From Hydrolagus colliei (lineage: Eukaryota), in the NCBI GenBank assembly GCA_035084275.1, contig CM068746.1:31806001-31870000 (forward strand): a stretch of 64,000 nt of DNA, written 5' to 3'. The notes beneath the pieces are model-generated. The model made no database searches, had not been told where the DNA came from, and saw nothing but the letters and a program-made list of their open reading frames with translations. Positions 4,436 to 56,889 of the stretch are shown here, one piece after another. How positions within the stretch are numbered: position 1 is the first letter of the stretch; each line of letters opens with the position of its first letter. A program made the translations under genes and the position numbers.

Positions 4436-6370
4436 GTACTACCGCTGTGATGGAATCCCGAAGGACTTGAAATGCCTGAATTAAATAACACATCAACATA
4501 TATAAGATGGAATAAATTACAAGTGGAGAGGAATTACTTGTCCGGTGGCTCTTTTTGGTTAGTGCTGAGGCTTCCAGTTAGCGAGGTGTAACTCAACAAC
4601 AACAAAATTACACTAAAATAGCGCCTTTCACGTCAGGAGGGCATCCCAACATAAATTCACAGAATAATCTGGAGGTTCGCAGTGAGATTCTGCAGTTCAG
4701 GCAGAGGCATTTTTAACGCCCATCGGTGAAACGCACCGATGGGCCCCTCATATTCCGGGCCCCCAGAGTAATGGGAATGTGCTGAGCTCTTGTCTTTTGT
4801 TAAATATCTTCGATAAAGGCTAGCGCTCATTACACATCAAACTAGGTAAGATTCTACAACCTCCAACTGACGGTCCCCCCAAGAAAATTGCACCGAGTAG
4901 TTAGAAGTCCTAAAAACGCCTCTGAGTTCCGGGTGGGCCTCTTATTCCATTAAGCAGATCTGATTAACCAGGACAGAATTACAAAATCTAGGGACCAAAC
5001 TATCCAGCTCATTTAGCTGAAAAGCAAATACATTCTTTGGAAAATGTCAACAAAAGGCAGAATTTTAAAGATCAGGAATTTGATCACTTCAGAGTCTGGG
5101 TTTGTGTTCCATTACAAGTTCCCAAGAATAAGATGATGAACACAAAACTTAACCCGTTTGATAAGAAGTGAAATTAAACCCAGGGAAATGGGAGAAGCCT
5201 CCTACATGGCTCGCAAATCTCTCACATTGGGTTTGGAATCCTGTGCTTTGGGACGTCCTTCTGATGTGAAAGGCACTATACAAATGTAATTTTATTGTTG
5301 TTGGAATTGCACTAACTGAGGCCTAACTGTGCGATGAACTGAGGATAGGAAAAATAAATAATACCTCTCCTTTGCCGAAGGCCTTTCTGCTCTCCTAAAG
5401 GCGTTTGACTTCCTTTTCCCCTTTTTCCTTTTATTGTGATAGCTCATCTAAATGTCTGTTATTCACAGATGAATCTTGATAGTGAGCGACAAGAGGCTAT
5501 GATTGTGGGAAGCATCTTTGCAGACCCAAATACTGTGCTCACCCAGTGTCCACACACCTGCACCTCCAGCAGGGGGTGTCGCTGCATAGTGAGCAAGACA
5601 TGGGATTTGCTCTGATTTTTCTTTATTTTGCCCAAGGTGAAGCTCCCTCAGCAATCCTGGTTGAGAATAATTATCCCAGCACAGACTAGGATTGAATTTC
5701 ACCCTTTTCGCTTGTAGCCAGCTGGTCAAAGCATAAACTTGCTGAATCATTTACGGTCCAGTGCTATCGTTTCAGTCCAATAAGTCGATTTGCCATCAAT
5801 TGCATGAGAATTAATTTTCTTTAAAGCTCTCACAGGTAAAAATATATATGTCTTTTTTAAAAAAATGTAATAAAGTAATGTATTTCCATTGGATTATGCT
5901 CACATACTACTTTAATCATTTCCTCAGACAATTCCGGTCGATTCAGGAGACATGACCTATTGCTTCTCAATCCATTTTGACTTCTCTTCATCACTTCATA
6001 CCTGGTCTTTGTGGATTGCTGTGGATAGCATCCTGCATATTGCTCTCAAGCATTTCTCCCTACAGACTTATGAAGGTGGTGAAGAACACTCAGAAGGGTA
6101 CATAGTGTGCCATAATAGTGTGTCCTGTTTCACAAGAGAGCATGAGAACAGACAAGAAAAATGGTTTAATTAGATAATGACTTACAGTAGAGATCCCACT
6201 AACAAATAAAAAGAGCTGTGAATTGATTCCATGTTCTGGGAATCATTGGCCTTTCACTGTCTGGTGCTGGAGCTCAGACTGCACTGCACACTGCTGGAGG
6301 CTCACCTTGCCTGTGGTCATATTATTGCCTGCTGTGGTGGGGCTGCTTGAGCTACTCAGGCTGTACTCAC

Positions 6371-25587: not shown

Positions 25588-26648
25588 TCACAGGTGGGAG
25601 GTTACTTCTAGCTATCAAAAGGAGCGCCACTCAGGTTCCTTTAACTGAAGAATCTCGTTTAAAAATCTGTCAAATAAGAACATAAGAAATAGGAGTAGGT
25701 CATTCGGCCCCTCGAGCCTGCCCACCATTTAATAAGATTATGGCTGATCTTCTAACCTAATTCCACTTATCCCCTAAAAACCTAACTATGTCTCTCATAT
25801 ATCATCAAAACCTTTTATCCTCCTTTTTTCCCCCCGCGGTTTCAACATTTTCAACGGTTTATTCATTGGGGGTGATCCCCACTGACTGATATATCACCTG
25901 AGAGGAGGAAATATTCTCCTCTAATAACGTGATAACTTAAGAAACAATGACAGTGCGGCCATAAACCATCACAACTTTAACAAAGAAATCGTTAGCAACT
26001 GGACTCAAGGGAGAATAATCCTAACATTAAATTCACTGATAAGATAACAATTTCATATCCACTCTTTGCCTAAAGAGTCTGTGGATTACAAATGACAAGA
26101 TTGTTTGTTCTAAGTAAAATGTTAACTTGCCACAATTGTAACTTTACAAGAACAACTGTAAACCAGCTTCAAAATACAGGTAAAAACTAAATTTAAGAAC
26201 GTTCTACAATTCTGTGCAATGTTAATGAGGCGTTTAGAATTGTGAAGCATCCAATCTTATCCAGTAACTCTTTCATATTTCCAACGTCTGCAGCATTTGG
26301 TGTTTTGTTTATCCTGTAACGTATTGGTGTCATTTGCAGTTACTGGCCATTTTATTTATAGGAATCCTGATTTACAAAATACATGTACCTGAAAAAACTG
26401 CTGTTGGAAATGTTAAGCATAAACATTCTAGGGATTCCTTCAGTTCAAAAAGGGCCTTATTTAGGCTGAATTTAAGCATCTTTAAATGGTTGGTCTGCTG
26501 TGAGAATACTATCAAGCCACTATTACAGTAAACTAATCTCTTTCTGTCATTTTGGCTAGCAATTGAAGAGAAAAAGAACAGCTCACTGGATAGAAGGACA
26601 GAAACAAAGAATAATCCACATTTCTAGACTGCCGGCACAACTTCTTAC

Positions 26649-26777
26649 CTGAAATGATTTGATGAATGTCCAAAGCAGAGTTCGGATTCCCTCACCACGA
26701 CTTAGCAATTTGACCAAACGCATCACCCGAAAAAGACGGAAGAAAGTGATGGAAATGCGAGAGTTTTCGTCTGAATT
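26649..26777 (-). CDS. CACNA1C: CACNA1C exon (~34), IVS4 voltage sensor: [43 protein letters not shown]
   Basis: 129 nt, ttccag| ... |gtaaga, phase 0; S4 Arg/Lys repeat. Confidence 0.97.
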
Positions 26778-28278
26778 CTGGAATACCTCACAGAAAGCAA
26801 TACATTATAATACAGATTAAAAAGTAGCAATAACTAATAAAACTGGATCCAGAGCTCAGACCCTATAGCTTTCTGGTGACATCAAATTTTGTATGATAGC
26901 TGATACAATTCTAAACAAATCTGGAACCCCCATTTATTATAACTGACAGCTTGTAACATTTATTCCAGTGTGTATGGCATCACATTATAGCTGTACGGAG
27001 TAAATTAAGCGACATCCCAATGACACAGAATATCTGAAGATTATTAATCCATAAACCTGCATTGATAGTAGTCACACTGATTGTCCATCCTCTGCAACAT
27101 TAACATTGGAGCCTATAGAGTTGATCTATACTCTGATAGTCAGTGTGAGCACAAAACAGCCGTCTCCCTATCATACAATAATTAAACACTACAGTAGCAA
27201 TAACAGATAGAAAGGATCCATAACATTATTATATTGATTTTGAGACCGGTTTCCATTTTTGGCATTAATACTCAATAACACTATTGTCACAGCCTTGTGA
27301 TTATGCACAGGCATTGTTTTTCTTCTTTTATTTATTAATACAAATTTCACATCCTATCGCACTATATAAAACCATCGGGATCTTTTCATCCTTTCTCTAA
27401 GAGGCACTTGTCTGAGAACTAAAGTAAAGGATCCTGTTCCTCAATAAAAACAATATTGGTTGCGATCAAAACACATCACACTGCTCTACTACCTTTAACT
27501 GTTACATTTACTGAAACATTTGATGATTGCAAATTTCAATCAGTTGCACAGAAGGTATGTTCCAGGAAATTCATTTATAGTATTCTGTTGTATCGCTCAG
27601 TGCTGGTTTCAAGTGCTGTAGATGTGAGTGAGTTACAATGTCTCTTTGCGTGTGTGAGAGAATGCTGAGCTGTCTCTGGAGAAACTCTTTTATTGCTAGA
27701 ATCATAAGATTCTCAAGTTTTTTTTAACACCGTTGCCACATTACTATCCCCACTAAACCCTACGAATGTGTCAGAGCAGCTTCAGATTGACTTGTTTTAT
27801 TTTCCCCACTCTGTACCTCACTCCAGCATTTTGGCTAAGATCAAGAATTCACTGTGGTTGGAAGAAATTATGGGCACAAACCAGCACACTTCTGTTCAGT
27901 TGTGATGCTTATTTATCAACAAGCTACAACAATGGGCCACCCACTAGGTACTTTCTGTAGCTCTCAATTTACTGTGGAGTCATGCACTGTTTACTGTGGC
28001 TTCACAGTTCTGAAAATGTAAGCAGTAAGATTACTGACTTCAGTTACTCTGAACATCAAACAAATGCATTAGACTACCCATTAGACAGTAGTGGGATCCG
28101 AGCCAGTGGATAAGTCACATAACAGCTGGTTGTGATAAAATTTTACACGGTAATGAAAATTGAGCTCACTCTATGGTAATCTGGCAGTGTCCATAGAACC
28201 ATGATGGCAGAGAAAGCAAACAGGTCAATAAAGTTTGCAAACACAGTTTCACAAGACAGTGCACGCACCAACAAAACA

Positions 28279-28284
28279 CATGCA
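28279..28284 (-). promoter_or_regulatory. Rbfox-type UGCAUG intronic splicing enhancer downstream of the exon-33 orthologue
   Basis: TGCATG on the transcript strand 47 nt past the donor; Rbfox control of mammalian exon 33 is established. Confidence 0.6.
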
Positions 28285-28331
28285 GTACATATGTAAAGAA
28301 AGAAACCTGCAGGACACACCGTTTGTCTTAC

Positions 28332-28367
28332 CATGGAGGTGGAAGAAGATGAGATATTCTCAGCTGG
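28332..28367 (-). CDS. CACNA1C: CACNA1C optional IVS3-S4 linker microexon (exon 33 orthologue): PAENISSSSTSM
   Basis: 36 nt, ctttctttaaag| ... |gtaaga, phase 0; aligns to mammalian PAEHTQCSPSM. Confidence 0.9.
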
Positions 28368-30043
28368 CTTTAAAGAAAGGCAGATAAGAGATGAGCTGTA
28401 ATATGCTTGGCAGTGAGACACCATTTCTGTTACACTTCTTCAGTGTCAGGGTGTGAATACAGCCACAACATGAAGGAAGGCCAAACTTTTCTTTTGTGTG
28501 TGAATTACTTGGGATAGACCATCTCCAATTGAATTATTTTAAAGAAGTTGTATCTGTTGGTCACTTCACTTTTTCATGTTGTGGTACATGCTCAAAAGGG
28601 AACGTGAGTCAAAGGGAAGCTTTTTATGTTCAGAGCCAATTCACAGGGAAAAAATATACTCAGCCTCATGTGACGTCGCATCAAGTTTATCCAGCTTAGT
28701 AATAATCAATAGGAGGGTCTCTGGTTTGATCCCTGGTCTGCACTGAATTATCAATCATAGCCATATAGAAGTACTGTACTACATTTGGTGTTAATGCCCT
28801 GGGATAGGGCAGCAGGGGGAGAAATTTAGCCAAGACTCCTGATGGCTATCCTATAGTCAAAGAGATTCTCAATGTTCAGTTTGTCTGAAGCAAATTGGAA
28901 ACCAAAACATGGCACTGTAGATCACATACTCTATATGGCCAGTCAATTTGGTGGAGCTGCTATGGGAATATATGGGGTGGGGGGGGGGTCTGTTCCCAGT
29001 GGGATCATCAGAGTAATTGGGCCGGGAGGGAGGCTGGACCAGAGAATCTCCATCGCTGGTAGGATAATTTACATGCTTTCAAAAACATTAAAATAACTTT
29101 AGTAAGGATATTTTTTCTGTAAAAGGAAAGAATGCATTGAACAAAGTGTACAACCCATTGACTTTCATCACCCTTTAAAGTAGCTTTGTCATGGTTAAAG
29201 GAGAGATTCAGGCAAGCATCATTTTCTCAAGGGTGCAGACTGCAGCAGATGTAATATCTGCTGCAGTGAAAATAATGCAATGTTATTAACAGATGTTTAG
29301 TTTAAAAAAACTTTAAAATAGAGTTTTCACAACAGTTGTTGAGACAATGATAATAAATGTTATCAGCGGTGTCATTGTGCACTTCTATTTTATGAACTTA
29401 TGAGAAGTATATGTGATTTTACTAGGACAGCGTTGCCCCTTTAAGTCTCAAGGAGAAGTTGTTGGGATATCATACTGATTTGACATAGCAAAGGTATTAT
29501 CAACCAACAGTGGAGAACACAAACACAAAGAAAGCCCTCATCACCATCGATAAACAAATGAAATGAGTCATTTGTACAAAGGCATGAGACTATAGCTATT
29601 TAACATGGTCACACTTACAGCACTTGTGATGCTCTACCTCAATATATATCCGCAGCAGAATCAATACAACCCCCAAATCAGCCACAAGTGTCAGCCAATA
29701 TTTTGATGGTTGTTAAGAACAGTACTTGATAACTGTAATAAGTTCCAAAATTCAGTGGTTAACAAGAGTTATACTTCAATCGTCAACCTTTACTGCCAAA
29801 CACTTCTTTCCTATTCTGCACACACACAGAAAAAAGATAGGTAGCAATACAAGAAAAACTAATATATGCTCTCTGCCAGATGAGCAACATTTAATAAGCA
29901 AAGATTTTAACACACATCCCTAATCTGTCGTAACCATTTTCTTCACAAATAAAATTAATTCTCCAAGAAATCTCAAATATTTTGTTCTCAGCCATTTCCT
30001 CTAGCCCTGGTTTTAATTCTCCCTACAAAGTGATAAAGATTTA

Positions 30044-30365
30044 ACAATAATAATAATCCTTGCATTTGATATAGCATTTTCACATCTCCTAGATACCTCA
30101 AAGCGCTTCACAGAATATACTGTAAAGTGATTTGACTGTATATTTTGTGGGAGAAACGTGGCAGCCAATTGCACACGGCAGTGTCCCCACAAACAGTAAC
30201 GACTGAAGTGACTCAATTTATTATTGGGTTTTTTTCTTGAGGGTTTATTATCAGGTGTGTAGAGTAGGGAAACTGGCTTAAGGGTTCGCCCTGAGCTGGC
30301 GGGAATCAAATTCACTTCTCTCGCTTGCGAGTTGAGTGCTCTAACCACTAAGCTACAGGACTTCA
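30044..30365 (-). mobile_element. Full-length SINE, inserted beside another element's (TTA)n tail (30366-30440)
   Basis: Complete head, body and tail. Confidence 0.9.
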
Positions 30366-32787
30366 TAACAATAATAATAATGATAATAATAATAATAATA
30401 AGCTTTGCATTCAACATAGCACCTCGTCACGTCAGGACATGAGCAAGATGGAAGAGTTGGTAATTCTTGGAAGAATTTAAATTTGTTAAATTGAAATAAA
30501 ATTTAAGTATTTTAATTTCAATTTACAACACATTCCTAATCACCAAAAGGTTGTTTTTAATTATGTCCCACTATTACTGCAAGCTACGGAATCATAACTA
30601 TATTTTAAAAACAAACCAAATTGTTTCCTTTTAGACATTTAATAACTACACTACCTTGTTAGATGTTAATGCTGTTTCCTCTGATAGGAAGGAAAATAGG
30701 AGCAAACTTTTTCATTTTACATGCTGTGGTGCAGTGAAGCCATGCAGCCACAGACTCACAGTCACTTCACTAAATTGCTGACAACTGTAGAAAAATAGGA
30801 TTTTTTTGTGATGCCTTTTGAAAATGACATTTTCCACAGATAACTATCAGTGTCTTACTTTGCAAATACAGTAGTACCATAAAGCTTTTCTGTGGTGGAT
30901 AGTTGGATTTAAGCTGTATTTCCCGCATCTTTTTACACTCTTATTTCCACGGGGAAGATATACCAAGGTATAAACAATATAACCTCTCAGATTACCAGTT
31001 CAAATTCAATGTGAAAATGGACCTCAATTCACAATAATGTTCCCAGATCTCCACTGATCCTGTTGTATATTCAACCAGGAAGCAGAATGACCAGTTTACC
31101 AAAATTACACAATTTTCTGTATGCAAGGAAATTGCTTCTGCTCACCAATTTCTGCTCAACAATTGACATTTGTTTGGCACCCCTCACATGGGATAGCATC
31201 TCAGATATTCATGCCAAGATATAGATGTTCACATCTCCATCTTCATATTGAAAGCATTGTAAACTACCACTCCATTATATTTCTCAAGTGGCTCAATATT
31301 TTCCTGCTTGCATTTTGGTTAAGTAACTCAATACTTATACACAGTATTCTAATTTTCATGGGAGATATTTAATACAGACCCTTCAAAATGAAAGAAAGAG
31401 AGCAAAAAAAACATGTGAACATGATCCTAACAATGTTTAAGGATGAGAAGAGGTACAGAATGACATGGTGGGTTTCACGGAGACTCACTATAAACTTTGT
31501 TAAATTGTCAAAAGTGTTTTGTTTCAGCACAAGTTTGATAGAAAGCCTACAGAAAGCAATGAATGAGAAGCCACTTCAACTTTTAAATAACAACCACTGG
31601 TCATGGTGGTCACCAATTTGACTCGGAGGCACATTAGTCTGCTTCTGACTTACTAAATAAACTTCATGATCCAGAAAGTCAACCATTCTTTTGATGCTCA
31701 CCGCTTGAGATTCGAGAAGCATCCTTCATCATTTCAAAAGGGTTTTATTGGGACAGTCGTCTCTTATTACTATTGTGGTGAGGTGCTGAACTGGATGTAT
31801 GACTTCTTCAGAAGATGTCACAATAAATAGCTGAGAAGTTTCTTCTTGAGACACCTGCACAGGAATCATCCCTGAGGTGCCCTTGGTTTCACTCTGTTTC
31901 TCATCTTCACGAACGTCCTGGTAAATGGTAAGTCGAGTTTTTCTCTTTAATGGTGTTACTATCCATTAAAGAAGTTGCTCATTATTTAACAGTGGGTGAA
32001 TCCGGTGTGTTCCTTAATAAAAATAAAGCATGATGATGCCAACTGAATGCTACCATCCATATAAGTACAGTATTGTAAATTATTTTCAATACTGTACTGA
32101 GGAATTTAGACATAAAATTACACTTGTGTCGCGTCTTTCACATCAGGAGGACATCCCAAGGCGCTGGGATACATTCAGCCATACCTGAAGGGGTGCAATT
32201 CTGCTCCACTCACTGAATGTACTGAATCTTGTAAACAGCCCTTAAAATGGGAAATCCCATCATAAGGACACACCACAAGATCCCTCTTCCTTAGGGGAAC
32301 AGAATAGAATAACTCCCTGGTCTAACAATGTCCACACATCATTTTAGTAGCGCTCCTCCTGTCCATGGTACTTTCTCCCATGGAGTATCATTACTCGGAA
32401 ATCTGCCTCTTATACACAAATCCAAATGCAGTCATCCATCACTTGATGACCAGGGTTGCTGGAGATTGTATTAGATAGTAGGAAATTTGTGACTTGCCTG
32501 TTAATACCCAGTACAAGTTCTTCATCTCTTTCTATGCACTCAGGAACAAGCAAGAGTGTGACATCTATCCTTGGTACAGTGCTCTCCAGCTATACTTTTT
32601 ATGGCATCTAATTGAAAAAATGCAATACCTCTTTTAGACATTACTGTTTATGCTGGTCTTTTGGAATGAACTTGAATGAATGTTTCTATCTCCCGAACAT
32701 TTAAATTGCACCTTCCTCGTGAATCATGGTGAAGACATGATATCACATTCTATATAACGCTAAGGTCTTAGCAATTCAGGAATATAT

Positions 32788-33126
32788 GGAGCTCCTGTGG
32801 CCTAGTGGTTAGAGCACTTGTCTTCCAAGCTGGGGAGACCAAGCTGGGGAGACCTGTGTTCGAATCCAGGCAGGTCAGGGCGAAACCTTGAACAAGTTTC
32901 CTTACTCCACATGCCTAATAATAATCCCTCCAAAAAAACCACAATGATAAAATTGGTCATTTCAATCCACGACTGTTTGTGGGACATTGTTGTGGGCAAT
33001 TGGCTGCCGTGATTCGCCCACAAATATATAGTCAAATCACTTTACAGTATATTCTGTGAAGCGCTTTGGGACGTCGATAAGATGTGAAAAGCGCTATATC
33101 AAATGTAAGGATTATTATTATTATTA
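32788..33126 (+). mobile_element. Full-length tRNA-headed SINE, best-preserved copy
   Basis: A box (tggcctagtgg), B box (gttcgaatcc), Deu-like central tgtttgtgggac...caattggctgcc, L2-like tail, (ATT)n. Confidence 0.92.
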
Positions 33127-34271
33127 AATCCACAAAATACATTGACAGAACTGAGATAGTGAATGCAATTTAAAAAGATCAGTGAGATACACTGATGCTT
33201 CCCGTGCTTCAATCATCTCAGCACAATTTGTTACTCAGAGGATCTCCTGTCATGTTACTAACCTTGTAGCATCTGGGTGATGGATGGCTAATGGCTAAAC
33301 CCAGTGTTAAGAGTTAAATGCCTCTGCGGGTACTGTGAGTCCTTATTTGGGATTTGCTCAACGGAAGCTCATGGTGCACAAGGTCAGTAAATATTAATAA
33401 TTGGAAATTGTCGCTCATGTTCCTGTAACACACATGTCAAGAGCGCGTCTCAAAATTTACCCTTTTCAACTGGCTTTTGGTTACCTTTCCCCTACTCACC
33501 TGCCTGGGCTCCTAAGCTCAAACACCTGTAATATTAAATATTGTGAATGTGCTTTGGGATGAACATTCTATCTAACTGAAAGGCGCCATTTCAATATAAG
33601 TTGTATTGCGTTTCACAATCAACAGAAAACTACAGCAGGGGTGAAAAATACATAATTTCTTAACAATTAATTAATTATTGAATCTGTTATGTTTCCCATT
33701 TTACACCTATACATAGTAAGTACGTTGCTAAAAATGGTGGAAACAGAAACAACATCAATTAATTTCCTGTTTGTCACCAAGTTTACCTAATCTGACTCAT
33801 TTTATAATGTAGCTGTGGGATTGGGCATGACTGCATTCCGTTCTATATTCTCTCGTCGAGCCTTTGTATTTTTTTTACAGTTTAGTGGTGAAGCAGAGTT
33901 ATTTTTGTTTGGTGACATGTGACTCATGTTGGCTGACAAAAAAAGAAAATGACGGTAATGCCACTTCCTTTACTGATGCTAGAGAAACATTCAGGAGCCA
34001 GACTAGAAGAGCCATCCAAAGCAAACTGCCGGAGAGTAAGGTCATGGGAACAAGGTTAGACTCGCAAACCAACAGTAAAGTCGCAGATGTAAAAACGCTA
34101 GTAACAGAGTTACTTCCCAGCAAATGTTTAGAATGAAATACTTTATAAGGAGCAATAGGGTTATGTTATCTCTGTTGCATTCCAGAGTCATGTCATTGTA
34201 GAGATAGTGTAACTGAATCAAAAAAGTTACACAAATAAGAAAAATGATAAAACACATGGTTACTATATTAT

Positions 34272-35130
34272 AACAACAAATTACATTTGCATAGCGCCTT
34301 TCACGTCAGAAAGATGTCCCTGGCCGCTGGACAATCAGGGGTTTTGAACCCAAGCTGTTGGGATAAGAAGGGTGGCTGAAGGTACAATTGAAGAGGAAGT
34401 TCTTCAGATGGGACTTGAAGGAGGCAGGGTCGGTGGTGGGGGGGGGGGGGGATGTGGAAGGAATGCAGGAAAGAGTTCCAGAGTGTGGGGGCAGAGATGC
34501 TGAATTCCCGACAGCTAAATTGCAAGAGACCTGAAACAGAGCAATGTCCACCAAATGGAGGGAGCGGGTAGGCTGATATGGGGTTATGATGTTGCAGAGG
34601 TTGAGGGAGCAGAACCATTCAAGGCATTGAAGGTAAGAACAAGGGGTTTGTATTCAATTCTCTGAGGGATGGAGAGCCGGTGAAGCTGGACAAGAGTGGA
34701 GATGATTGGTTCCCTGTGTGGGATAGGACATGAGCTGCAGAATTCTGAATAATCTGTAGCTTGTCGGGGGAAAAGTTGGAAAGTCCAGTGACCAGGCAGT
34801 TGGTGTAGTCAAGCTAGGATGTAATGAAAACCTGGATCAGGGTTTCGGCGGCCTATGGAGAGAAGCAGTGGTGAAGATGGGCGATGTTGCGGAGGTGTGG
34901 AAAGACAGCACAGCTCACAGCACAAATGTGGGGTGTGAGTGGTAGGTGGGGGTGGAAAAGAATGCAGAGGTTTCAGATTGCCTCGGTGAGGTGAAGAGTA
35001 CTGCCATAAATGGTGATAGTATCAGTGGCTGAGGTGAGGACGCACTGCTGGGAGACAAGTAGGAGAGCCTCTGTCTTGTCAACGTTGAGCTGGAGGAAGT
35101 TGGCTCTCGTCCAGGACTTGATGTCAGACA
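34272..35130 (-). mobile_element. L2-type LINE 3' fragment (~860 bp) including RT C-terminus
   Basis: Minus strand encodes IKSWTRANFLQLNVDKTEALL and FKSHLKNFLF; tail at 34272. Confidence 0.85.
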
Positions 35131-37020
35131 GATAATTAGCCATTAATTAATCGAGTATGTATTACTAGTATAGTAACCATGATAATAGTTGAACGGTAGT
35201 ATATGTTCATATATGTGATGAAGCGATTAGACTGATGTGCTCCCTGCCTCAAAAATACTAAGACATCCTACCAAGAATCCTAGAGATGAGATTACTCAGT
35301 CTTTCAAAAGAAAGTAATCTTCAGATTCAAATGCTGTCATACCTGACAAGGAACCATAAAAAGGGAGCAATGCAAGAATTGAATAATACTTGATAGACAG
35401 TAGTATCTGATCATGTAAGACTTTCACAATACATTTCATATAGTAGGTTGATTTGAAGTCCAATGACACAACAGCTAATCTAGACCAGCAGTCTCATAAA
35501 CACCAATTAGATGAATGATCTGTTTTCATGAAGTGAATTTGGATTATATTAGAACAATGGGCTGGGTATATGAGACTAGTAATCTGCATATAAGTTTTTC
35601 ATGCTGAATAGGCTAGTGACCTGTGACATGTCAAAGTGCACCCCAATCACATCTATTGTTATGAATGGCTTCCTACCTAAGAAAAATATGCTTTTTCTCC
35701 ATAGTAAAAAAAATACTAAACAAAGTTGTATTCCATTAATGAAGATGACAAATAGCTCTCCAGTGGATTCACAATTCACAGCTACTTCACTTGATTTGTA
35801 CCAAATCGTTGACTGTCCAGCACCTTATCACATCCTCCCACATGAAAGGCGCTATATAAAATGTAATGTGTTGTTGTTGTACATGGTATTGGATATGGTC
35901 ACCAATCTAACAATTGGAATCCATATAAAAGAAACCCATTTTAAGCTGTATAGAGTAGAGGGTGGTGGGCAGCATCACGGTTAGCCATTTGGACTTGATC
36001 TACCCAACAAATGCTAAAGCTAAGATTTTATTTGTTGGTCCGCTATTTTACTGTATCTACATTTGCTAATACTGATTTGATTGCACTAGTTTTTCAGATG
36101 GGAAGTTGGATATTCCATAGAGAGATGTTTCATTTGCAAAGAGAAGAATGGTACTGGTGATGACATATGGAAGTTCGCCGATGAAGGTGACAAAGTAGAA
36201 TCAGGCACAGTTCCCTGATGGTCTTCATGCAGAAGCAGCGGTAAGATGAAACGCGATCTTCTGAGGATGTCAGTTATTCAGTTCAGTAGCTCAGCACGTG
36301 TATCTCAAGAGACAATCTTTTCAATCATAAAGAGAAACAGAGTCTTATCGAAACTACTGCTCTAATTTCTTCAAGATAATCTCCACGATTCTAGACCATG
36401 AAGTTGAAACTGTCTGATATCATGAATCTGGACTGGACTTAACAATCCTGAGTGTAATATATCTTTGCATATTCCTCAATTAAGGAAATTTTGTGGCAAT
36501 AGCATTGTTTAGCAATGCAGGCCCAATATTCACTTTAGAATAGCTGCTGGTGAATCTATGACAATGGCCCCAAGATATATCATGGTAGGAGGGTTACTCT
36601 TTGTTTCCGAATAATTTATGTTTAAGTTCAATATCTATAATTGTTTTTCTTTACAAGTCATCCTCTGTTGCTTCTGCTTGAGAAGTTTCTGCTAGAGTAG
36701 AGAGAAACTAGAGTGCATTGGCAACACAAATACTGAGAAATGCTTCACAAAATGTGGAAACGTATTGCATCGGGTAACAGAAATCCTACATACATTTATT
36801 AGGGATGAAATGGAAAACAAATAAATAACTTGAATTTCACACACTACAGTTGGTTTAATAGTTACTGGGCGAAATTCCATCTGAATTTAGATTATTGTAA
36901 AAAATTCTGGATGCTCAGAAGTGCTTCATAAATAGAATAAATCTAAACCTAGGTGAAACCTCTCTCCATATATTTTTAAAAATGTTGTCCAAAACTATTT
37001 AAAGAAATAGCAGTACTTAC

Positions 37021-37053
37021 AATGGAAGTTGATGGATGCATCCAGTATTCCTG
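37021..37053 (-). CDS. Candidate second IVS3-S4 linker microexon: (Q)EYWMHPSTSI, 33 or 30 nt
   Basis: gttaac branch-like motif, tandem acceptor atcag|cag|, perfect |gtaagt donor, phase 0, no stop; 3' end resembles the exon-33 orthologue. Confidence 0.45.
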
Positions 37054-37479
37054 CTGATAATGAGGTTAACAAACTAATGAACATAGGTGCATGAGAAGAA
37101 TCAAATCACATGGCATATGTAACACAATAATGTGTCAGGAAATCATAGCTGCTATGATTTTTTTTCGAGGATATATCCGAATGATAGCGATGAGGAAGAG
37201 TGAAACATTTGATTCAGTCTCCCACCCCTCTCTCCCATATACTCCCAAGGTATCTGAGATATTTTCCATATTCATACTGAAAGATTAATACCTGAGATGC
37301 TATCACTGTTAAATTAGTCTATGAGTAAACTATATTAGTTTTGCATTCTTAGTGATTTGGGTACCCCATCCACTCTAATGGTATTAAAAGATTCTTCTGC
37401 TTTCTAAGTAGACTTTTCATGTATCATTTGAAATGACAACCTCTACGTATAATGATACTCTGGTAGAAATAGAATCATC

Positions 37480-38030
37480 CATGGATGCACACTCCACCTC
37501 ACAAATACAGTCTGGAACCTTGGCATCTTAGTTAACTTCCAACTATCCTTTCTAACCCTACATCCATGCCAAGACATGCCCTGTCTTCCCCCACTTCCGC
37601 AACATTTCCTGGCACTGCTACTGACTCACATAGCTGGCCGCCAAAACTCTCATACATGCATTCATAATGTCCAGGCTTGACCATGCAAACTCTTTGCTTG
37701 TCGGCCTCTCCAATTCCTCCCTCCACATTCTGCCCCACCCTCTGAAACTCCATGCTGCAATCCCTCTGCCTTGCCCCACCCCTCATCTCCTTCTCACCCC
37801 TTCCCCCACCCTTCACCCTCGCCTGCTTCCTCCCTTTCCTCCTTCAAGGCCAGCCTCAAGACCTTCTTCTTTGACCGTGCCATCCGCTGCCCTCCTAACT
37901 ATCCCCTCTTTTCTTCTCTCCTTCCTCCTACCCCGACTATTCTTCCCATGCTTGGGTCCCGACCTAACTGTTCAGAGTCTTGGGACGTCCTCCTGACGTG
38001 AAAGGCGTTATACAAATGTAATTTTGTTAT
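37480..38030 (+). mobile_element. L2-type LINE 3' fragment
   Basis: LIHAFIMSRLDHANSLLVGL, SFKASLKTFFF, tail gggacgtcctcctgacgtgaaaggcg. Confidence 0.85.
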
Positions 38031-38058
38031 CTACAGTGGCACAAGCCTTGGGTAGGTG

Positions 38059-38093
38059 TGGGGGGGGGGGGGTGGGGGGTGGGGGGGGGGGGG
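38059..38093 (+). repeat. Poly-G tract
   Basis: ~35 nt of G interrupted by two T. Confidence 0.9.
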
Positions 38094-41000
38094 AGAGATA
38101 TAACTCATCGTTTTTACAGTTTAGTTTAGTTCTGTTCTATTTCTGATCAAACAGAATTCATTATTAAGCTATTTAGATTGCACCACATTAAGAGCTAGTA
38201 ACCATGGCTACATATAGTATTTGTTCAGCATGGTATTTCTGATCATTAGATACATTTTAGATAATAATAAATTGAACTACAAGTCCACTTCTTGCTTTAA
38301 AATAGCAGGTAATATTTTAGCAGGCAAGAATAGCAGGTAGTAATAATAACAGGTAATAGAAAAATGCAGTCTGTTTCCAGAAATGCATGATGTTTTTCAA
38401 CTAGACTAACATAAATTACAACCATTGTTCGATCTCAACTAATCTCAGCAAACTAATTGAAGTTTTGTCTTTTTCTTAAAAATCAAACATGACCAAAATT
38501 AATGTCACCACTGCGATGTCCTCGGAACACAATGTTGGCTGCAATCTCAGGTATTTTTCTTCCCATTCCTTTATTGGCATTTGTCTGATAAATGTACAGC
38601 AGATGGAAAAAGCAACCTGATCTGATTCCCCATTAATACCCTGTGATTCAACGCTATTGTGTTGGTCATTTGGTGGCAGAGTTGTCTAGTCTAAAACGTG
38701 AGTATTAATGACATCACTAAGAGAGTGCTTTACAAGTAGTTGCTGAACCTAAGCTGAACTGAATAAATAATGAAATTCTTTCATTTTAAAAAGTGGTAAC
38801 TAATTTTTGATCAGTTGGAAACCAATATGTCTTATTTAATTTAATCATTTATAAGAATATCCAGGCTATGAGAATATTTTTCTTGTCTGAACAATGGCTT
38901 GACTGGTATAAACTATTGGTTTGATTAGCAAAAAGAATAACAATAATAATCCTTGCATTTCGTAGAGCACCTCATCAAATCTTCGGGACATATCAAAGCA
39001 CTCCAAAGAATATACTGTAAAGTGACATTTTGTGGGCAATGCAATCTTCATGACACATATAAGTTAAAAGTATCACAACCATTTCTCAGAATTACAGCAA
39101 TAAATTGAAAATGTGCAGTGAAAATTATTTTCCTTCAAAATAAATACTGACATATCAGTTACATGTGTAGAACCTCGATATGCTTCATAGTGCATTAGGC
39201 AGTATGGTATTGGTAAAAAAACCAGTAAAGAATATTATGCAAATAAGTCACATACTCCATATTGCAGTCAGTTTTATAATGTGGACACAATATATCAAGT
39301 TCAATAGGAGCTATTATTATTATAGAATGTAATACTTTTTAAAAAGTGTGCCTTCTAATAATCCTCTAAGACTATTAGCCTGAAGGGCATTATATCAATT
39401 CAAGTCGTTGTTAATACTGGAGATCTGCTTAATACTGTATTTTAAACAGATAACATAATTAAGGAATAGGTTTTATGATTTGGAAGAACATTTTTGAGAA
39501 AGACTCAAAATTACAGCTACACTTTGTAAACCAACTTCCTGACATTTCAAGAAATAATTTCCATAAGAGCATTTTCAACTACTGTACTCTACTAATATTA
39601 TGTAATCTTCCAGGAATTATTAAATTGCTGACAAATAAAACCACTTGAAAATTAATAAGACATTCTGATATCAGCAGAGCACCTCGCTTCTGGTTGACAT
39701 GAATGGATTCTTTCGAGAGAATGTTTAGACTAAACCCGTAACATTAAATAATAGAACCAATGATTCCACAGCTCCCCCCAGGAGCGCCCCACTTCTGTTT
39801 CTCAACAATTGTGAGAAGAGCAGAATGACCAAACCAGTCACTTAAATCATTCACAGTCCTTTATGGCCAGCTAATCTAGAAGAAGCTACACTTGTGTCAT
39901 TCTATTGAGGACTTTTCCCTGCAACACCTGTCACTGAAGAACGGCAGCAGCAACAACAACAAAATTACATTTGTAAAATATAATTGCGTCCACATTTATA
40001 ACTGTGACACAAGGTATTCATGTTTCCTGCATTCATGCCAATTGTGGAACAGACAAGGCAGACATTTCCTATAGAACCAAAAATGATGCTGGAACCCAGG
40101 GATAATTTATTTGTTTGTTCTAGATAGATGACACCTGATTTAACATTGAGTGGCCTGACAAAGTAATCATATTGAAACATCTGTAATCCATATCTTAACT
40201 TACTAAGCAGATTGTACATTCGAAAGACAGTAAATATGCTGAGAAAGTAAATGCTATGAATTTAAACCAATTTTAATGGTTTAAAATTTTAGAACAATAA
40301 ATTCTAATGTTTTTGTTTCTTATTGCTGAGAAACAGTTGTGGTTTGGGCACAGCAATTAGTCAAAACGTCGACAGTTAACATGCACGATTTGTTTTTAAA
40401 ATAAAATACCAATAGAACCACTCACTTAAATCAAGATATTTTTGATTAGAGAATTTCTACATCTTGCTGGAAAAGAGCCAGCTTTAAATTCCTCATATGT
40501 ACAACAAAACCATTTTTGGCTATATGCGCAATGTTGCAGCTAAAAGCAGAAGCTCATTTAATACCTTTAGAACAGATTTTTGTAGTTTTCAGAAAGAGAA
40601 AGTATAGCGAGATTTTATGATGGTCTGCCCACACTTTCTCTAACTGTGTGATATTGATATTTGTGTATAACACGATCCAAATCACAGAATCAAATGATAC
40701 GGTTCTGGATTATATTATCATACGCTGTATAAGAGAATATACAGTAATAGATATGGTGCAACACATAGGAAGGCTGGTGGTACAAGGCACTAACATTCCA
40801 AGGTTCAAATAGACATGTAAAAGAACATGCGTGGCTTACCAACTATGATTGAAAACCTAATTATTGTATTGAGATTTTAAAAATATATAAATTGATAGGA
40901 TATATGTTCCCAGCTGTGAACCCAACAGGAAGAGTTTCTGATCTTAAGAATTAGGTTAATTAAAAAGGTTGGTAAACTAACCTTTGGAAATGTCCAGTGA

Positions 41001-42664
41001 TAATTTATCTTAGATAAACTAAGCTTCCAAAAGTATACTTTTTAAAATTATATCAATATCAAAATACAATACAGTACATATATATACACATCTGACCAAA
41101 AGGCAATGGCCTTCTGCTGAAAGTAGTTGCACTGCGCTGATTACAGAGATTGGATCATGGTTTCATAGATATCATAGTTTGAAGGGTAGATACCTCGGTC
41201 TAAGACTTAAATAAGTGCATAAAAGCTGCTCATAACAAAGAAAACCAAAATCATGCCAAGTGATAGAGAGGTAACGCAAAGTTCAATCCTACACTGTATA
41301 GCAGGTATCAACTGAAGGTCATCTCATCATTCTGTTTTTCTTCAAGTTTTAAATACTCTGAAATTCCAGTTGTAATAAACTACATGAATAATAAAAATAT
41401 CAATAATCTCAGCCATTTCGGTAAGGATGAATTCACTCTTGATATTGTGTCTCTCTTGTCAAGTAGGAATTTACTGCAATACATTTTAGAGTCACAAGTT
41501 TTATTAACAATAATGATGCCTGCATTTGATATTATGCCTCAGCACGTCATCGAGGCGTCTCAAAGTGCATCACAGGACGTAACGTGAAAGTGGATTGGTG
41601 TATATTCTATAGCAGAGATTCTCTTCTGAACATGCTTTCTACTTCTGTTCTCTCAGAAGGCATTGGTCCAAATGAACTGAGCTGTACCCCAGTACAAACA
41701 TTGATTGTGGAGTGCATGCCGCTGGAGATAGCCAGCTGTAACACCCAAGGAGCTTGTTTTGATAACGGTTTGCACTCTGAAAATTAAGATGAGATAAATC
41801 AATTTGCATTAAAAATGAATCCCTTATAAGGTATTGATGGCTGTCATGAACTTTAAGGAGACCCTTTTAAGATGCTAATCAATAAAGCACACAATTGTCT
41901 CTTTCATAAAATTGATCAACTGGTTGGTGCTCGGCATCGATTAGTGAAGGTCTCACGTAGGATTAGCACCATAAAGATTTTGAAAAGGGAAATAAATATG
42001 AATGATGTTTCTTTCCTCAAGTTGCTTTAATTTTAGTGATTTCATTTGCTTTTAGCAGTGTAAGTGCAGCATAAAAGAGAGGCTGTCCGAAAGACCAATG
42101 GCATAGGAGGGTTGCTGTAAAAGATCATTATGCCAGAAGGGTTGGACCAGGGCCATTCATTTCTGACATTCACTGCACAGTTTTTCCTAGGGGTGGTGGT
42201 GGCAGTGAGGAGTAAGTTTAGAGGTAAGGAAAGGCAAGCATTTTCCCATAACGAACCAGAAAAAATCAGAGTAGCTGCTTTAGACAGAAGACTCCCTCTT
42301 CTGAACCAAGTAAGAAAAACAATGCAGTTTAAATTTTTAAAAAAAGCTTCCTTGACTGACTTCAAATTAAGATAATCCTAAACACATCAGACAGGAGCAA
42401 GATTTTTTGTTTAAAAAGCAGCAGCTATTGCTTTACCTTTAATGATAGACATAAAAACAATCTTGACAATGAAATACACGTCAAGAGGTGGAAATAGGTT
42501 GCTACTCTTACTGAAAACTCCCAATTGCTTTCATGAAAATCGAGATTGCTTTCTTTGGGTAGATCCTTTTACTTATTTGCTTTCAATTGAACCCAGTAGT
42601 CACTAGTTATAGGCTTGTGGGATAGATGAAGAACTGGCCGAGATAATGAACTACATTATATACG

Positions 42665-42768
42665 GTAACTATACAGTCAATTCACTTTCAGTATATTCTG
42701 TGAAGTGCTTTGAGACATCGAGAAGATGTGAAAAGTGCCATATCAAATGCAAAGATTATTAGTATTAC
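42665..42768 (+). mobile_element. SINE 3' tail
   Basis: atacagtcaattcacttt...gtgccatatcaaatgcaaagattatt. Confidence 0.8.
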
Positions 42769-43708
42769 ATAAAAACACCAGCTCTATTGGTTGCAGAATT
42801 GCTTGAGGAAGCAGTTTGCTTAGAATAAGTAAGAGATAGCGGAAAATAATTTAAATGGGAATTACATTTAAAAAAATTAGTCAGGAAAGCTTCATCATGA
42901 AGAAGCTACACAAAAAACAGCTGCATGATTTTTTTCATAAAATAGGGTCGCTCTTTTTAAAGGTATACAGACTTTCCATAGCTGAGAGACTCCTCCGATA
43001 ACATTATTTTCCTTTCAATTATCTTTCACTTTCTGCAGGCGAAGGCTCTATTCTCCAATTAACTTCATCGTGGCTTAGCTATGTTCCAAAAATGAGTGAC
43101 CAGCAATATGGGGTCTTTTCCAGGAATTTAACCAGCTAAAACTGCACATTCTACCATCATGTCAACTGGCAAGCTTACTGCTATATGTCCAGTGAGGAAA
43201 TAGCTACCTGTTAGTGCTTCAGCTTGCACAGTTTGCACGTGTTGAGTGGAATAACCTGAGCCACATTAACTGGTCTGTTCCTTCCAAGTCCCACTAACAA
43301 ACCAGGCTGGCTTGTCCATCACCAACAATACTTTAGAATACCACAGACCTGCCTTGTTCAGGTATTGGACTACTAAGACTGCCACAATATATCTGCTAAA
43401 TTTTGAGTGTGTGAGTTGCCATACATTTCAGCATTTATTTTAAAAATCTCTGTGGCCTTTTTCATATATTGTTTTCTTTTTAACCAGAAATGGTTTTACA
43501 TTAGTTGTCTGGCCAGTTTCCAATCCAGAAATCAGAGTAATTTAAAACCCAAGTAACCGTATGGAGTATTTCCTCCAAATCAACCTGCTATACAGTTGAA
43601 GTCATGCCAGGCTTGGGAAAAGGGGAGAGAATAAAACATTACAAACATAAAATATTGAAAGAAAGGAGGGGAGCAGGCATGTTCCTTGAAACAACTGTGG
43701 TTACTTAC

Positions 43709-43792
43709 GTTCACCTCTGTGATAGCTATATCAACAACGCTACCAACAACAATTAAGGCATCAAATGTATTCCATGCATCACAAAAATAGTG
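43709..43792 (-). CDS. CACNA1C: CACNA1C mutually exclusive IVS3 exon B: [28 protein letters not shown]
   Basis: 84 nt, atgcag| ... |gtaagt, phase 0; paralogue of exon A, 393 nt downstream. Confidence 0.96.
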
Positions 43793-55616: not shown

Positions 55617-56889
55617 CTGTTAATAGGAAATAAATAATAGTTAGGTATTTCCAATAATTATATCTGTTCTCCCCAAATATGAAAGATCATTAAAAATGTC
55701 CTGTGCCGTTTTATTTTCTTGCCACCTCTTTGACTAATGGCACAGTCCACTAATCAGGAGGGTAGCTGTTTGAATTACTCAAATTATAGGAATGCTATTC
55801 TCAACATTAAATACCAGGAAATATTAAATGACTGCCTTTACAGATTTCCTCTCCATATATGTAAAGAAACAATGTGGACACCAGTTGCCTTTTCTAAATA
55901 GGAATTTCTAAGAATCATCCACTGTACACTCAAACTTGTGGAGAATCTGCATATGAATTAAAAAACAATAACTTACATTGCAGATCCTAGATTTGAATAA
56001 CACACTCTGATAGTAAAATATAGAATGATATAATTTACACGAAAAATCAACCGTGGTCTGGGAGCAGCAAAATTATGAATATAATTCTGACAATACTTTC
56101 TCATCTGCATGTACAAGAACAACAACAACAACCTCGATTTATATAGCATCCTCCACGCCGGACGGCATCTCAGAGCGCTTCACAATAACGGATCCCGGGA
56201 GTGAGCCAGGGGCCGGGAAAAATACACTAGAAAAACACATCCTGAAAACCTTTTTGTTACTGTCATGTTTGTCCATTACAGAAGCACCAACAATGTACAG
56301 AAATCAGGAGCCTAATGTATAGAATGTTTGAGTTGAGTACTTTTCTATCACTCCAAGACATTGCACAAAAAAATACTATATAATTAGGCTATCTTAGCCT
56401 TGGTTTACTTTAAAGATGACATTGGGAAAAAGCTATTTCCTTAATTAATCAATATAATTGTGAGTACTGTATTTGTCTTACATTTACAAAATGTATTTTA
56501 TAAGAGCAATAATCTGCTGATATAGTTAGTTATTTACAGTACAATTTCTTCAGAAACTATGGAGCATAGAAACTACAAAGGCGGAATTGTGCTGTGGGCT
56601 ACAGAGGATCATGCAGCACTTAAAAAACGAAGGGGTAGAAATTCCATTTGGGTCTACATTAACTCCATTTTTGTAGCATTTTGAGAGATCCAGAATTAGA
56701 CAAATTCTTAAATACAGCTTTAATTTTGAAGCCAGTTTTCTATAAGATCTTCTAAGTACTAAAGGAAACCGGCTTTGAAGTTCTGAATGCAGTTGAATTT
56801 ATATAATTCAACAACGACCAAATGGCTGTACCAATAAATACCAATCTCTTGTAAAAGCACTACAAAATAACTAAACTTTTATTTTTTTT

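What the first reader, a model, noticed from the sequence alone, without database searches (positions are those of the whole stretch)
37021..37053. Possible second, duplicated IVS3-S4 linker microexon upstream of the exon-33 orthologue
Seen: in the 15-kb intron between IVS3 exon B and the PAENISSSSTSM exon lies ...gttaacctcattatcag|cag|GAA TAC TGG ATG CAT CCA TCA ACT TCC ATT|gtaagt. It is phase 0, stop-free and frame-preserving with either tandem acceptor (33 or 30 nt), and has a perfect donor. Its end (tca act tcc att|gtaag, STSI) resembles the end of the true exon (tcc acc tcc atg|gtaag, STSM). Established: this extracellular linker tunes Cav1 voltage dependence, and mammals use a single optional exon 33. 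Inference: this lineage may have two alternative linker microexons from tandem duplication, giving extra voltage-sensor variants.
Basis: partly seen in the sequence, partly recalled or inferred. Interest (0 to 1): 0.7.

Follow-up and report, generated by a model that had tools for sequence, protein, structure and literature searches.

The report
Probable pseudo-exon in chimaera calcium channel
A 33-base stretch inside an intron of a chimaera-type fish's Cav1.2 calcium-channel gene has exon-like borders and a short likeness to the gene's known tuning exon, but borders this good arise by chance about once per such intron and no related protein examined carries it, so it is likely an unused look-alike, not a second exon.

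Summary
The sequence is as described: AG|33 nt (or 30 nt via CAGCAG)|GTAAGT, phase 0, stop-free, in the intron between IVS3 exon B and the exon-33 orthologue of CACNA1C. The genome is holocephalan-like (one exon 97% identical to Callorhinchus milii). Splice-site quality is at chance level: shuffled introns give 1.16 equally good micro-ORFs, and at least one in 71 of 100 shuffles. The 3'-end likeness to exon 33 (9 of 12 nt) is the only non-trivial signal: 7 of 600 shuffles, post hoc. Flanks show no homology. None of 353 readable Cav1.2 linkers carries the peptide, including 44 elasmobranch ones; the 10 C. milii models are uninformative because they also lack true exon 33. RNA laying was inconclusive: repeats swamped the junction tables. 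Verdict: likely pseudo-exon (0.7); a real lineage-specific cassette remains possible (about 0.2-0.25). Better-supported linker variation lies next door: a 9-nt upstream acceptor on exon 34, annotated in 23 of 44 elasmobranch records, and a 12-nt distal donor on exon 33 that matches the gar and bowfin exon end.

The parts
37021..37053 (-). Candidate microexon / probable pseudo-exon (QEYWMHPSTSI; 30-nt form from 37050)
   Evidence: crude splice score 14.7 (33 nt) or 12.0 (30 nt); single copy in the genome
44186..44269 (-). CACNA1C IVS3 exon A (exon-31 type, GYFSDPW...SEIN)
   Evidence: same peptide in chondrichthyan records
43709..43792 (-). CACNA1C IVS3 exon B (exon-32 type, HYFCDAW...TEVN)
28332..28367 (-). 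Exon-33 orthologue, PAENISSSSTSM; top-scoring site of the intron; TGCATG (Rbfox-type) motif 48 nt downstream
   Evidence: sawshark PAENIPSTSTPM
28320..28331 (-). 12-nt in-frame extension of exon 33 to a second donor (adds VRQT); gar and bowfin exon 33 ends in VRQM
   Evidence: rank 2 of 589, score 16.5. Use in this species not shown
26778..26786 (-). 9-nt upstream alternative acceptor of exon 34 (adds VFQ); V[LI]Q in 23 of 44 elasmobranch records, GLQ in gar and bowfin
   Evidence: Use in this species not shown
26649..26777 (-). Exon 34 (IVS4, [13 protein letters not shown]...)
36902..36983 (.). Fragment of a dispersed, palindromic (MITE-like) repeat starting 37 nt after the candidate's donor; weaker likeness on to about 36780; it does not include the candidate

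Best explanation
The 33-nt stretch has an AG acceptor, a GTAAGT donor and an open phase-0 frame, but it is likely a pseudo-exon: intron sequence that the spliceosome would skip, removing the whole 15.3-kb intron. Shown: borders, frame, chance-level splice score, single genomic copy, absence from all protein records read. Inferred: it is skipped because it lacks the support that exon 33 has (polypyrimidine fraction 0.64 against 0.82; nearest TGC at -38 against -15; no GCATG within 300 nt downstream against one at +49), and its likeness to the end of exon 33 is a coincidence of a C/T-rich 12-mer. Linker variation in this gene more likely comes from including or skipping exon 33, from the 9-nt alternative acceptor on exon 34 and from the 12-nt alternative donor on exon 33.
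For:: 100 order-3 Markov shuffles of the intron give a mean of 1.16 sites this good and at least one in 71 of 100; the intron's antisense strand has 1, the window's plus strand 2 in 64 kb; two unannotated sense-strand sites elsewhere in the gene score higher (56006-55977, 5581-5558); no DNA likeness to exon 33 once 100 or 300 nt of flank are added (P 0.26, 0.16); peptide against the gene's own exon 33 P 0.063; 0 of 353 readable linkers (of 367 records) hold it; six of its seven 5-mers occur in no record; 44 readable elasmobranch records (14 genera) show skipped, included and +3-residue forms but no second exon; motif comparison; in a paralogue's linker intron a 69-nt micro-ORF (14.2) outscores the likely true exon (10.9), so the score does not pick real exons. 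PMC4318891 (one passage): pseudoexons can outnumber exons 10:1.
Against: Donor-anchored match of 9 of 12 nt to exon 33: only 3 other of 6,828 GT sites in the window reach it; 7 of 600 (lenient) and 3 of 600 (stricter) shuffled introns yield a pseudo-exon that does, and the next best real site has 5 of 12. PSTSI equals five residues of skate exon 33 (4 of 1,162 control peptides score as high), though in another register. Length 33 nt equals human exon 33. No holocephalan evidence either way: C. milii models lack even true exon 33, and 29 members of two elasmobranch clusters were not listed. Annotation misses rare exons: long reads found 38 novel exons in human CACNA1C (PMC6906184 passages).
Confidence: 0.7

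Rival explanations
1. A real holocephalan-specific cassette exon born by old tandem duplication of exon 33, whose 5' two thirds have since diverged; included instead of or with exon 33, it would give an 11- or 10-residue (or 22-23-residue) IVS3-S4 linker and would shift activation positively relative to the skipped form.
For: 9 of 12 nt at the donor end, P about 0.005-0.012; ungapped donor-anchored identities E, S, T, S and I/M with exon 33; both splice sites and the frame intact; L-type channel genes are prone to tandem exon duplication (PMC9741552 passages); inserting linker exons right-shifts V1/2 (PMC5279877, PMC6161609 passages).
Against: Statistic chosen after seeing the sequence; the same test gave 3 chance hits in 3,608 exon-site pairs, about 1% per intron, so a scan of many genes will meet such cases. 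No flank homology and three gaps needed to align the two exons. No counterpart in 44 elasmobranch or 353 vertebrate linkers; the exon-33 orthologues are polar S/T/P/N peptides without Y, W.
Confidence: 0.17
2. A real but low-level exon that arose de novo from intron sequence (cryptic or noisy inclusion), tolerated because it keeps the frame in a flexible extracellular loop; the likeness to exon 33 is incidental.
For: Best unannotated splice-site pair of the intron; human CACNA1C has many rare novel exons; TCT-CTC followed by TGC lies upstream, loosely like the SRRM3/4 enhancer described in bioRxiv 10.1101/2024.09.17.613571 (passages).
Against: No transcript evidence; motifs this short are common; the TGC is at -38, upstream of three of five branch-point-like pentamers.
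Confidence: 0.08
3. A decayed, unused duplicate of exon 33.
For: The same 3'-end likeness.
Against: A copy old enough to have lost all flank homology would be unlikely to keep both splice sites and the frame without selection (inference).
Confidence: 0.05

Closest known systems
CACNA1C exon 33 (Cav1.2 IVS3-S4 cassette; human PAEHTQCSPSM, 33 nt)
   Same: Same intron region, phase 0, 33 nt, ends S-x-S-hydrophobic before GTAAG.
   Different: The true orthologue is already present at 28367-28332; the candidate lacks the P-A/T start seen in shark, ray, chimaera, gar, coelacanth and amniote orthologues, has Y-W-M-H, no downstream GCATG, and is in no record.
Other IVS3-S4 cassettes: Cav1.1 exon 29, Cav1.3 and Cav1.4 exon 32, Cav2.1/2.2 exon 31a (PMC5279877 passages)
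   Same: Optional, frame-keeping linker inserts that tune activation.
   Different: One cassette per gene in the passages read; no second linker cassette was seen there.
Tandem duplicated mutually exclusive exons of CACNA1C, such as 31/32
   Same: Proposed origin by exon duplication in the same gene region.
   Different: Exons A and B are equal in length, clearly homologous end to end and under 400 nt apart; the candidate is 8.7 kb from exon 33 and alike only in its last 12-18 nt.
Intronic pseudoexons (PMC4318891 passage)
   Same: Canonical splice sites deep in a long intron, no transcript or protein record, frequency at chance level.
   Different: It has a nominally uncommon likeness to a neighbouring real exon.

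Membership tests
IVS3-S4 linker cassette exon (exon-33 type) | Lies between the IVS3 and IVS4 exons, phase 0, multiple of 3, stop-free, AG/GT borders | tested here: met
IVS3-S4 linker cassette exon (exon-33 type) | Included in mRNA (junction reads) | tested here: inconclusive
   listed joints all lie at repeats; not even exon 33 to 34 is listed; 1,594 joints not shown; raw-read depth about 10 on exon 34
IVS3-S4 linker cassette exon (exon-33 type) | Peptide present in annotated isoforms of relatives | tested here: not met
   0 of 353 readable linkers, 0 of 44 elasmobranch; C. milii models uninformative
IVS3-S4 linker cassette exon (exon-33 type) | Conserved island with intact splice sites in related genomes | not testable with these tools
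   no vertebrate genome collection (no relatives); one search shows no letters at the site
IVS3-S4 linker cassette exon (exon-33 type) | Shifts voltage dependence when included | not testable with these tools
   needs patch clamp
Tandem duplicate of exon 33 | Exon homology above chance | tested here: inconclusive
   last 12 nt P 0.005-0.012 post hoc; whole exon P 0.04, peptide P 0.063
Tandem duplicate of exon 33 | Homology of flanking intron | tested here: not met
   P 0.26 at +-100 nt, 0.16 at +-300 nt
SRRM3/4-dependent neural microexon | UGC between branch point and AG (79% and 74% of two classes; not strictly required) | tested here: inconclusive
   TGC at -38 only; branch point not established
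Rbfox-activated cassette, as exon 33 | (T)GCATG in the adjacent downstream intron (motif recalled; Rbfox control of exon 33) | tested here: not met
   none within 300 nt; exon 33 has one at +48
Exonised transposon | Exon or its splice sites lie inside a repeat | tested here: not met
   36990-37100 scores as shuffles against 12 repeat copies (23.9 vs 24.2), the repeat itself 87; single copy

The most novel reading that the evidence does not exclude
Chimaeras carry a second, duplication-derived Cav1.2 IVS3-S4 microexon (QEYWMHPSTSI or EYWMHPSTSI) that, with exon 33, its 12-nt alternative donor and the 9-nt alternative acceptor of exon 34, builds a combinatorial set of voltage-sensor IV linkers, including an aromatic-rich one seen in no other vertebrate record read here.
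Probability: 0.2. Interest if true: 0.5.

Novelty: not a real feature. Interest (0 to 1): 0.2.

Why it matters
If it is a pseudo-exon it does not matter, beyond showing the base rate of such look-alikes. If real, it would be a natural variant at a site that sets Cav1.2 voltage dependence and whose loss causes arrhythmia and altered plasticity in mice (PMC8748671 abstract), and a case of microexon birth by duplication: a new variant of a known kind. The side findings are firmer and small: the window supplies the holocephalan exon 33 that all 10 C. milii models lack, and points to alternative splice sites on exons 33 and 34 shared with other fishes.

Tried and rejected
Sequencing-run search with the 3' end of the gene: no RNA holder listed on record; five guessed-RNA contig sets of a relative (share 0.05-0.10), one DNA holder, three single-cell raw-read runs. 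Laying X1, X2, X3, X7 (4 of 9 runs) on 26400-43700, which leaves out both IVS3 exons, so upstream junctions could not be seen whole: repeat-derived records filled the tables and no exon joint was listed. The raised depth in the bin holding the candidate (X1 17, X2 35.9) is not evidence, as that bin holds a dispersed repeat. Exonised-repeat origin rejected. A profile search with a two-row alignment of a sawshark linker stretch and the candidate returned 120 listed hits (of 1,980), mostly amniote exon-33 forms, none with the peptide; the alignment placed the candidate poorly, so this is weak. A search with the bare 29-residue frame was not run: 11 residues could not reach the allowed E-value. 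The odd 29-residue linker of the C. milii RefSeq model maps in pieces to about 43045, 41726 and 30910, the last with a purine-rich acceptor and weak donor: read as model fill, not as an exon. Paralogue intron (G000:C20) shows no likeness to the candidate; its strong matches are to repeats. Earlier-findings look-ups gave nothing. Ten paper searches listed no paper on a second Cav1.2 linker exon in fishes; the library lacks most subscription papers, and supplements were not read (those of PMC6906184 list the human novel exons and may bear on whether any lies in this intron).

Full report
Setting. The window is G000:C13:31806001-31870000 of a 1.0-Gb genome. The minus-strand gene is CACNA1C: a C-terminal exon hits shark CACNA1C first and is 97% identical to three Callorhinchus milii models against 80-86% for elasmobranchs, so the animal is most likely a holocephalan (inference). 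Twenty-one tblastn matches lay out the exons. Around voltage sensor IV: exon A 44269-44186, exon B 43792-43709, the exon-33 orthologue 28367-28332 and exon 34 26777-26649. Human exon numbers follow PMC5748662 and PMC6161609 (passages) and partly recall.

Observation. The stretch 37053-37021 is as described and is single-copy. With a crude generic splice matrix (frequencies recalled, not trained here) it scores 14.7, third of 589 in-frame AG..GT micro-ORFs, behind two forms of exon 33 (18.9, 16.5). That rank is not unusual: order-3 Markov shuffles of the intron give 1.16 such sites on average and at least one in 71 of 100; the antisense intron has 1; two unannotated sites elsewhere in the gene score higher, one of which (56006-55977) is also stop-free in its intron's phase. 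In a paralogue's linker intron the probable true exon scores below a pseudo-site.

Duplication test. The last 12 nt match exon 33 at 9 positions. Of 6,830 GT sites on both strands 5 reach this, two being exon 33 and the candidate. In 600 shuffled introns a plausible pseudo-exon reached 9 of 12 in 7 (lenient) or 3 (stricter) cases. An empirical control using 19 of 21 exon ends (2 dropped for want of a GT; a few others visibly off by some bases) against 190 sites in 268 kb gave 5 hits in 3,610 pairs: the candidate, one paralogous exon and 3 chance hits, about 1% per intron. The 12-nt window was chosen after seeing the match; at 24 and 33 nt the rate among GT sites rises to 2.7%. Whole-exon DNA P is 0.04, with 100 or 300 nt of flank 0.26 and 0.16; peptide against its own exon 33 0.063; against the best of eight natural chondrichthyan exon-33 peptides 4 of 1,162, through PSTSI in skate, in a register two residues off the donor. 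So there is a modest signal and no supporting block of homology.

Relatives. Three protein searches and three cluster look-ups gave 367 Cav1.2 records, 353 with a readable linker, many of them redundant amniote isoforms. None holds the peptide. Of 47 elasmobranch records 44 are readable (14 genera): they show exon 33 in or out and a 3-residue insert, never a second cassette. Two clusters were listed only in part (15 of 23, 15 of 36). All 10 C. milii records have filler linkers and lack exon 33, so they say nothing; one filler maps in pieces to three other intron sites, none the candidate.

RNA. No run on record as RNA holds the gene's 3' end. Laying four runs on 26400-43700 showed a relative with introns about 85-90% alike (X1 pieces) and raw reads (X7) that agree with the window at four exon-34 positions where X1 and X2 differ, at depth 5-11. 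The listed joints were all at repeats, so neither exon 33 nor the candidate could be judged. Higher depth in the candidate's bin is explained by a palindromic repeat at 36902-36983, which does not include the candidate.

Regulatory context. Exon 33 has a pyrimidine fraction of 0.82, TGC at -15 and GCATG at +49; the candidate 0.64, TGC at -38 and no GCATG in 300 nt. Rbfox proteins promote exon 33 (PMC5748662 passage); UGC near the acceptor is usual but not required for SRRM3/4 microexons (bioRxiv 10.1101/2024.09.17.613571 passages). This is suggestive only: exon 34 has the same 0.64.

Mechanism. Most likely the site is ignored and the intron is removed whole (0.7). If used, it would add 10-11 residues to the extracellular IVS3-S4 loop and, by analogy with exon 33 and other inserts (PMC5279877, PMC6161609 passages), would shift activation positively. 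The better-supported extra linker forms are a 9-nt upstream acceptor of exon 34 (VFQ here; V[LI]Q in 23 of 44 elasmobranch records; GLQ in gar and bowfin) and a second donor 12 nt past exon 33 (VRQT here; gar and bowfin exon 33 ends VRQM, and one gar model stops before it; V-R is forced by the GTAAG donor, the Q and the in-frame GT are not). Their use in this species is inferred. Mammals also vary this linker beyond one cassette (exon 33L; a 2-residue-short exon 32 in two primate records), so 'a single optional exon' understates the known picture.

Papers: passages read of PMC6906184, PMC5279877, 10.1101/598722, PMC5748662, PMC6161609, PMC3596553, PMC9741552, 10.1101/2024.09.17.613571, PMC4318891; abstract and outline of PMC8748671; the rest as search listings only; no supplements. 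Ten searches listed no report of a second Cav1.2 linker exon in fishes.

Verdict. Observation confirmed; interpretation unproven and less likely than not. Interest 0.2; if shown to be spliced in, 0.5 as a new variant of a known kind.

Noticed in passing
window 26778-26786 (-): AG 9 nt upstream of the exon-34 acceptor adds VFQ in frame; RefSeq isoforms of sharks and rays carry V[LI]Q in 23 of 44 records, gar and bowfin GLQ; bird intron-translating models show GFQ.
   Followed up: partly
window 28320-28331 (-): Second in-frame donor 12 nt after exon 33 adds VRQT; gar and bowfin exon 33 ends VRQM, suggesting tandem donors conserved between chimaera and holosteans.
   Followed up: partly
window 28332-28367 (-): True exon 33 is present here but absent from all 10 C. 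milii protein models read, which carry filler linkers: an annotation gap.
   Followed up: partly
window 55977-56006 (-): 30-nt AG..GTAAGT site scoring higher than the candidate (17.5), stop-free in its phase-2 intron (would add about VCYSNLGSA) upstream of the exon at 55618; probably another pseudo-exon.
   Followed up: partly
window 5558-5581 (-): 24-nt AG..GT site scoring 16.4 in a C-terminal intron; phase not checked.
   Followed up: no
G000:C20 about 9970830-9970835 (L018): In the linker intron of a CACNA1D-like paralogue, a 6-nt AG|AATTGG|GTAAGC site (NW) with an upstream TGC, reminiscent of the 6-nt NP/ET exons of Cav2.1/2.2; a 45-nt PFVKPTDTPPTGDPV site is the likelier exon 32.
   Followed up: no
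L020 (G000:C29): CACNA1S-like paralogue with a single IVS3 exon and a 57-nt exon-29-type linker exon, TALASSGGLYCLSSGCDPN.
   Followed up: no
window 36780-36983: Decayed palindromic MITE-like repeat of about 220 bp, at least 39 other matches in the genome; two contigs of the relative stop aligning at 36782, so it may be absent there.
   Followed up: partly
G000, search with exon 34: Only three Cav1-type loci were found (C13, C20, C29) where four paralogues are usual in jawed vertebrates (recalled); one may be missing from the assembly or from the search.
   Followed up: no
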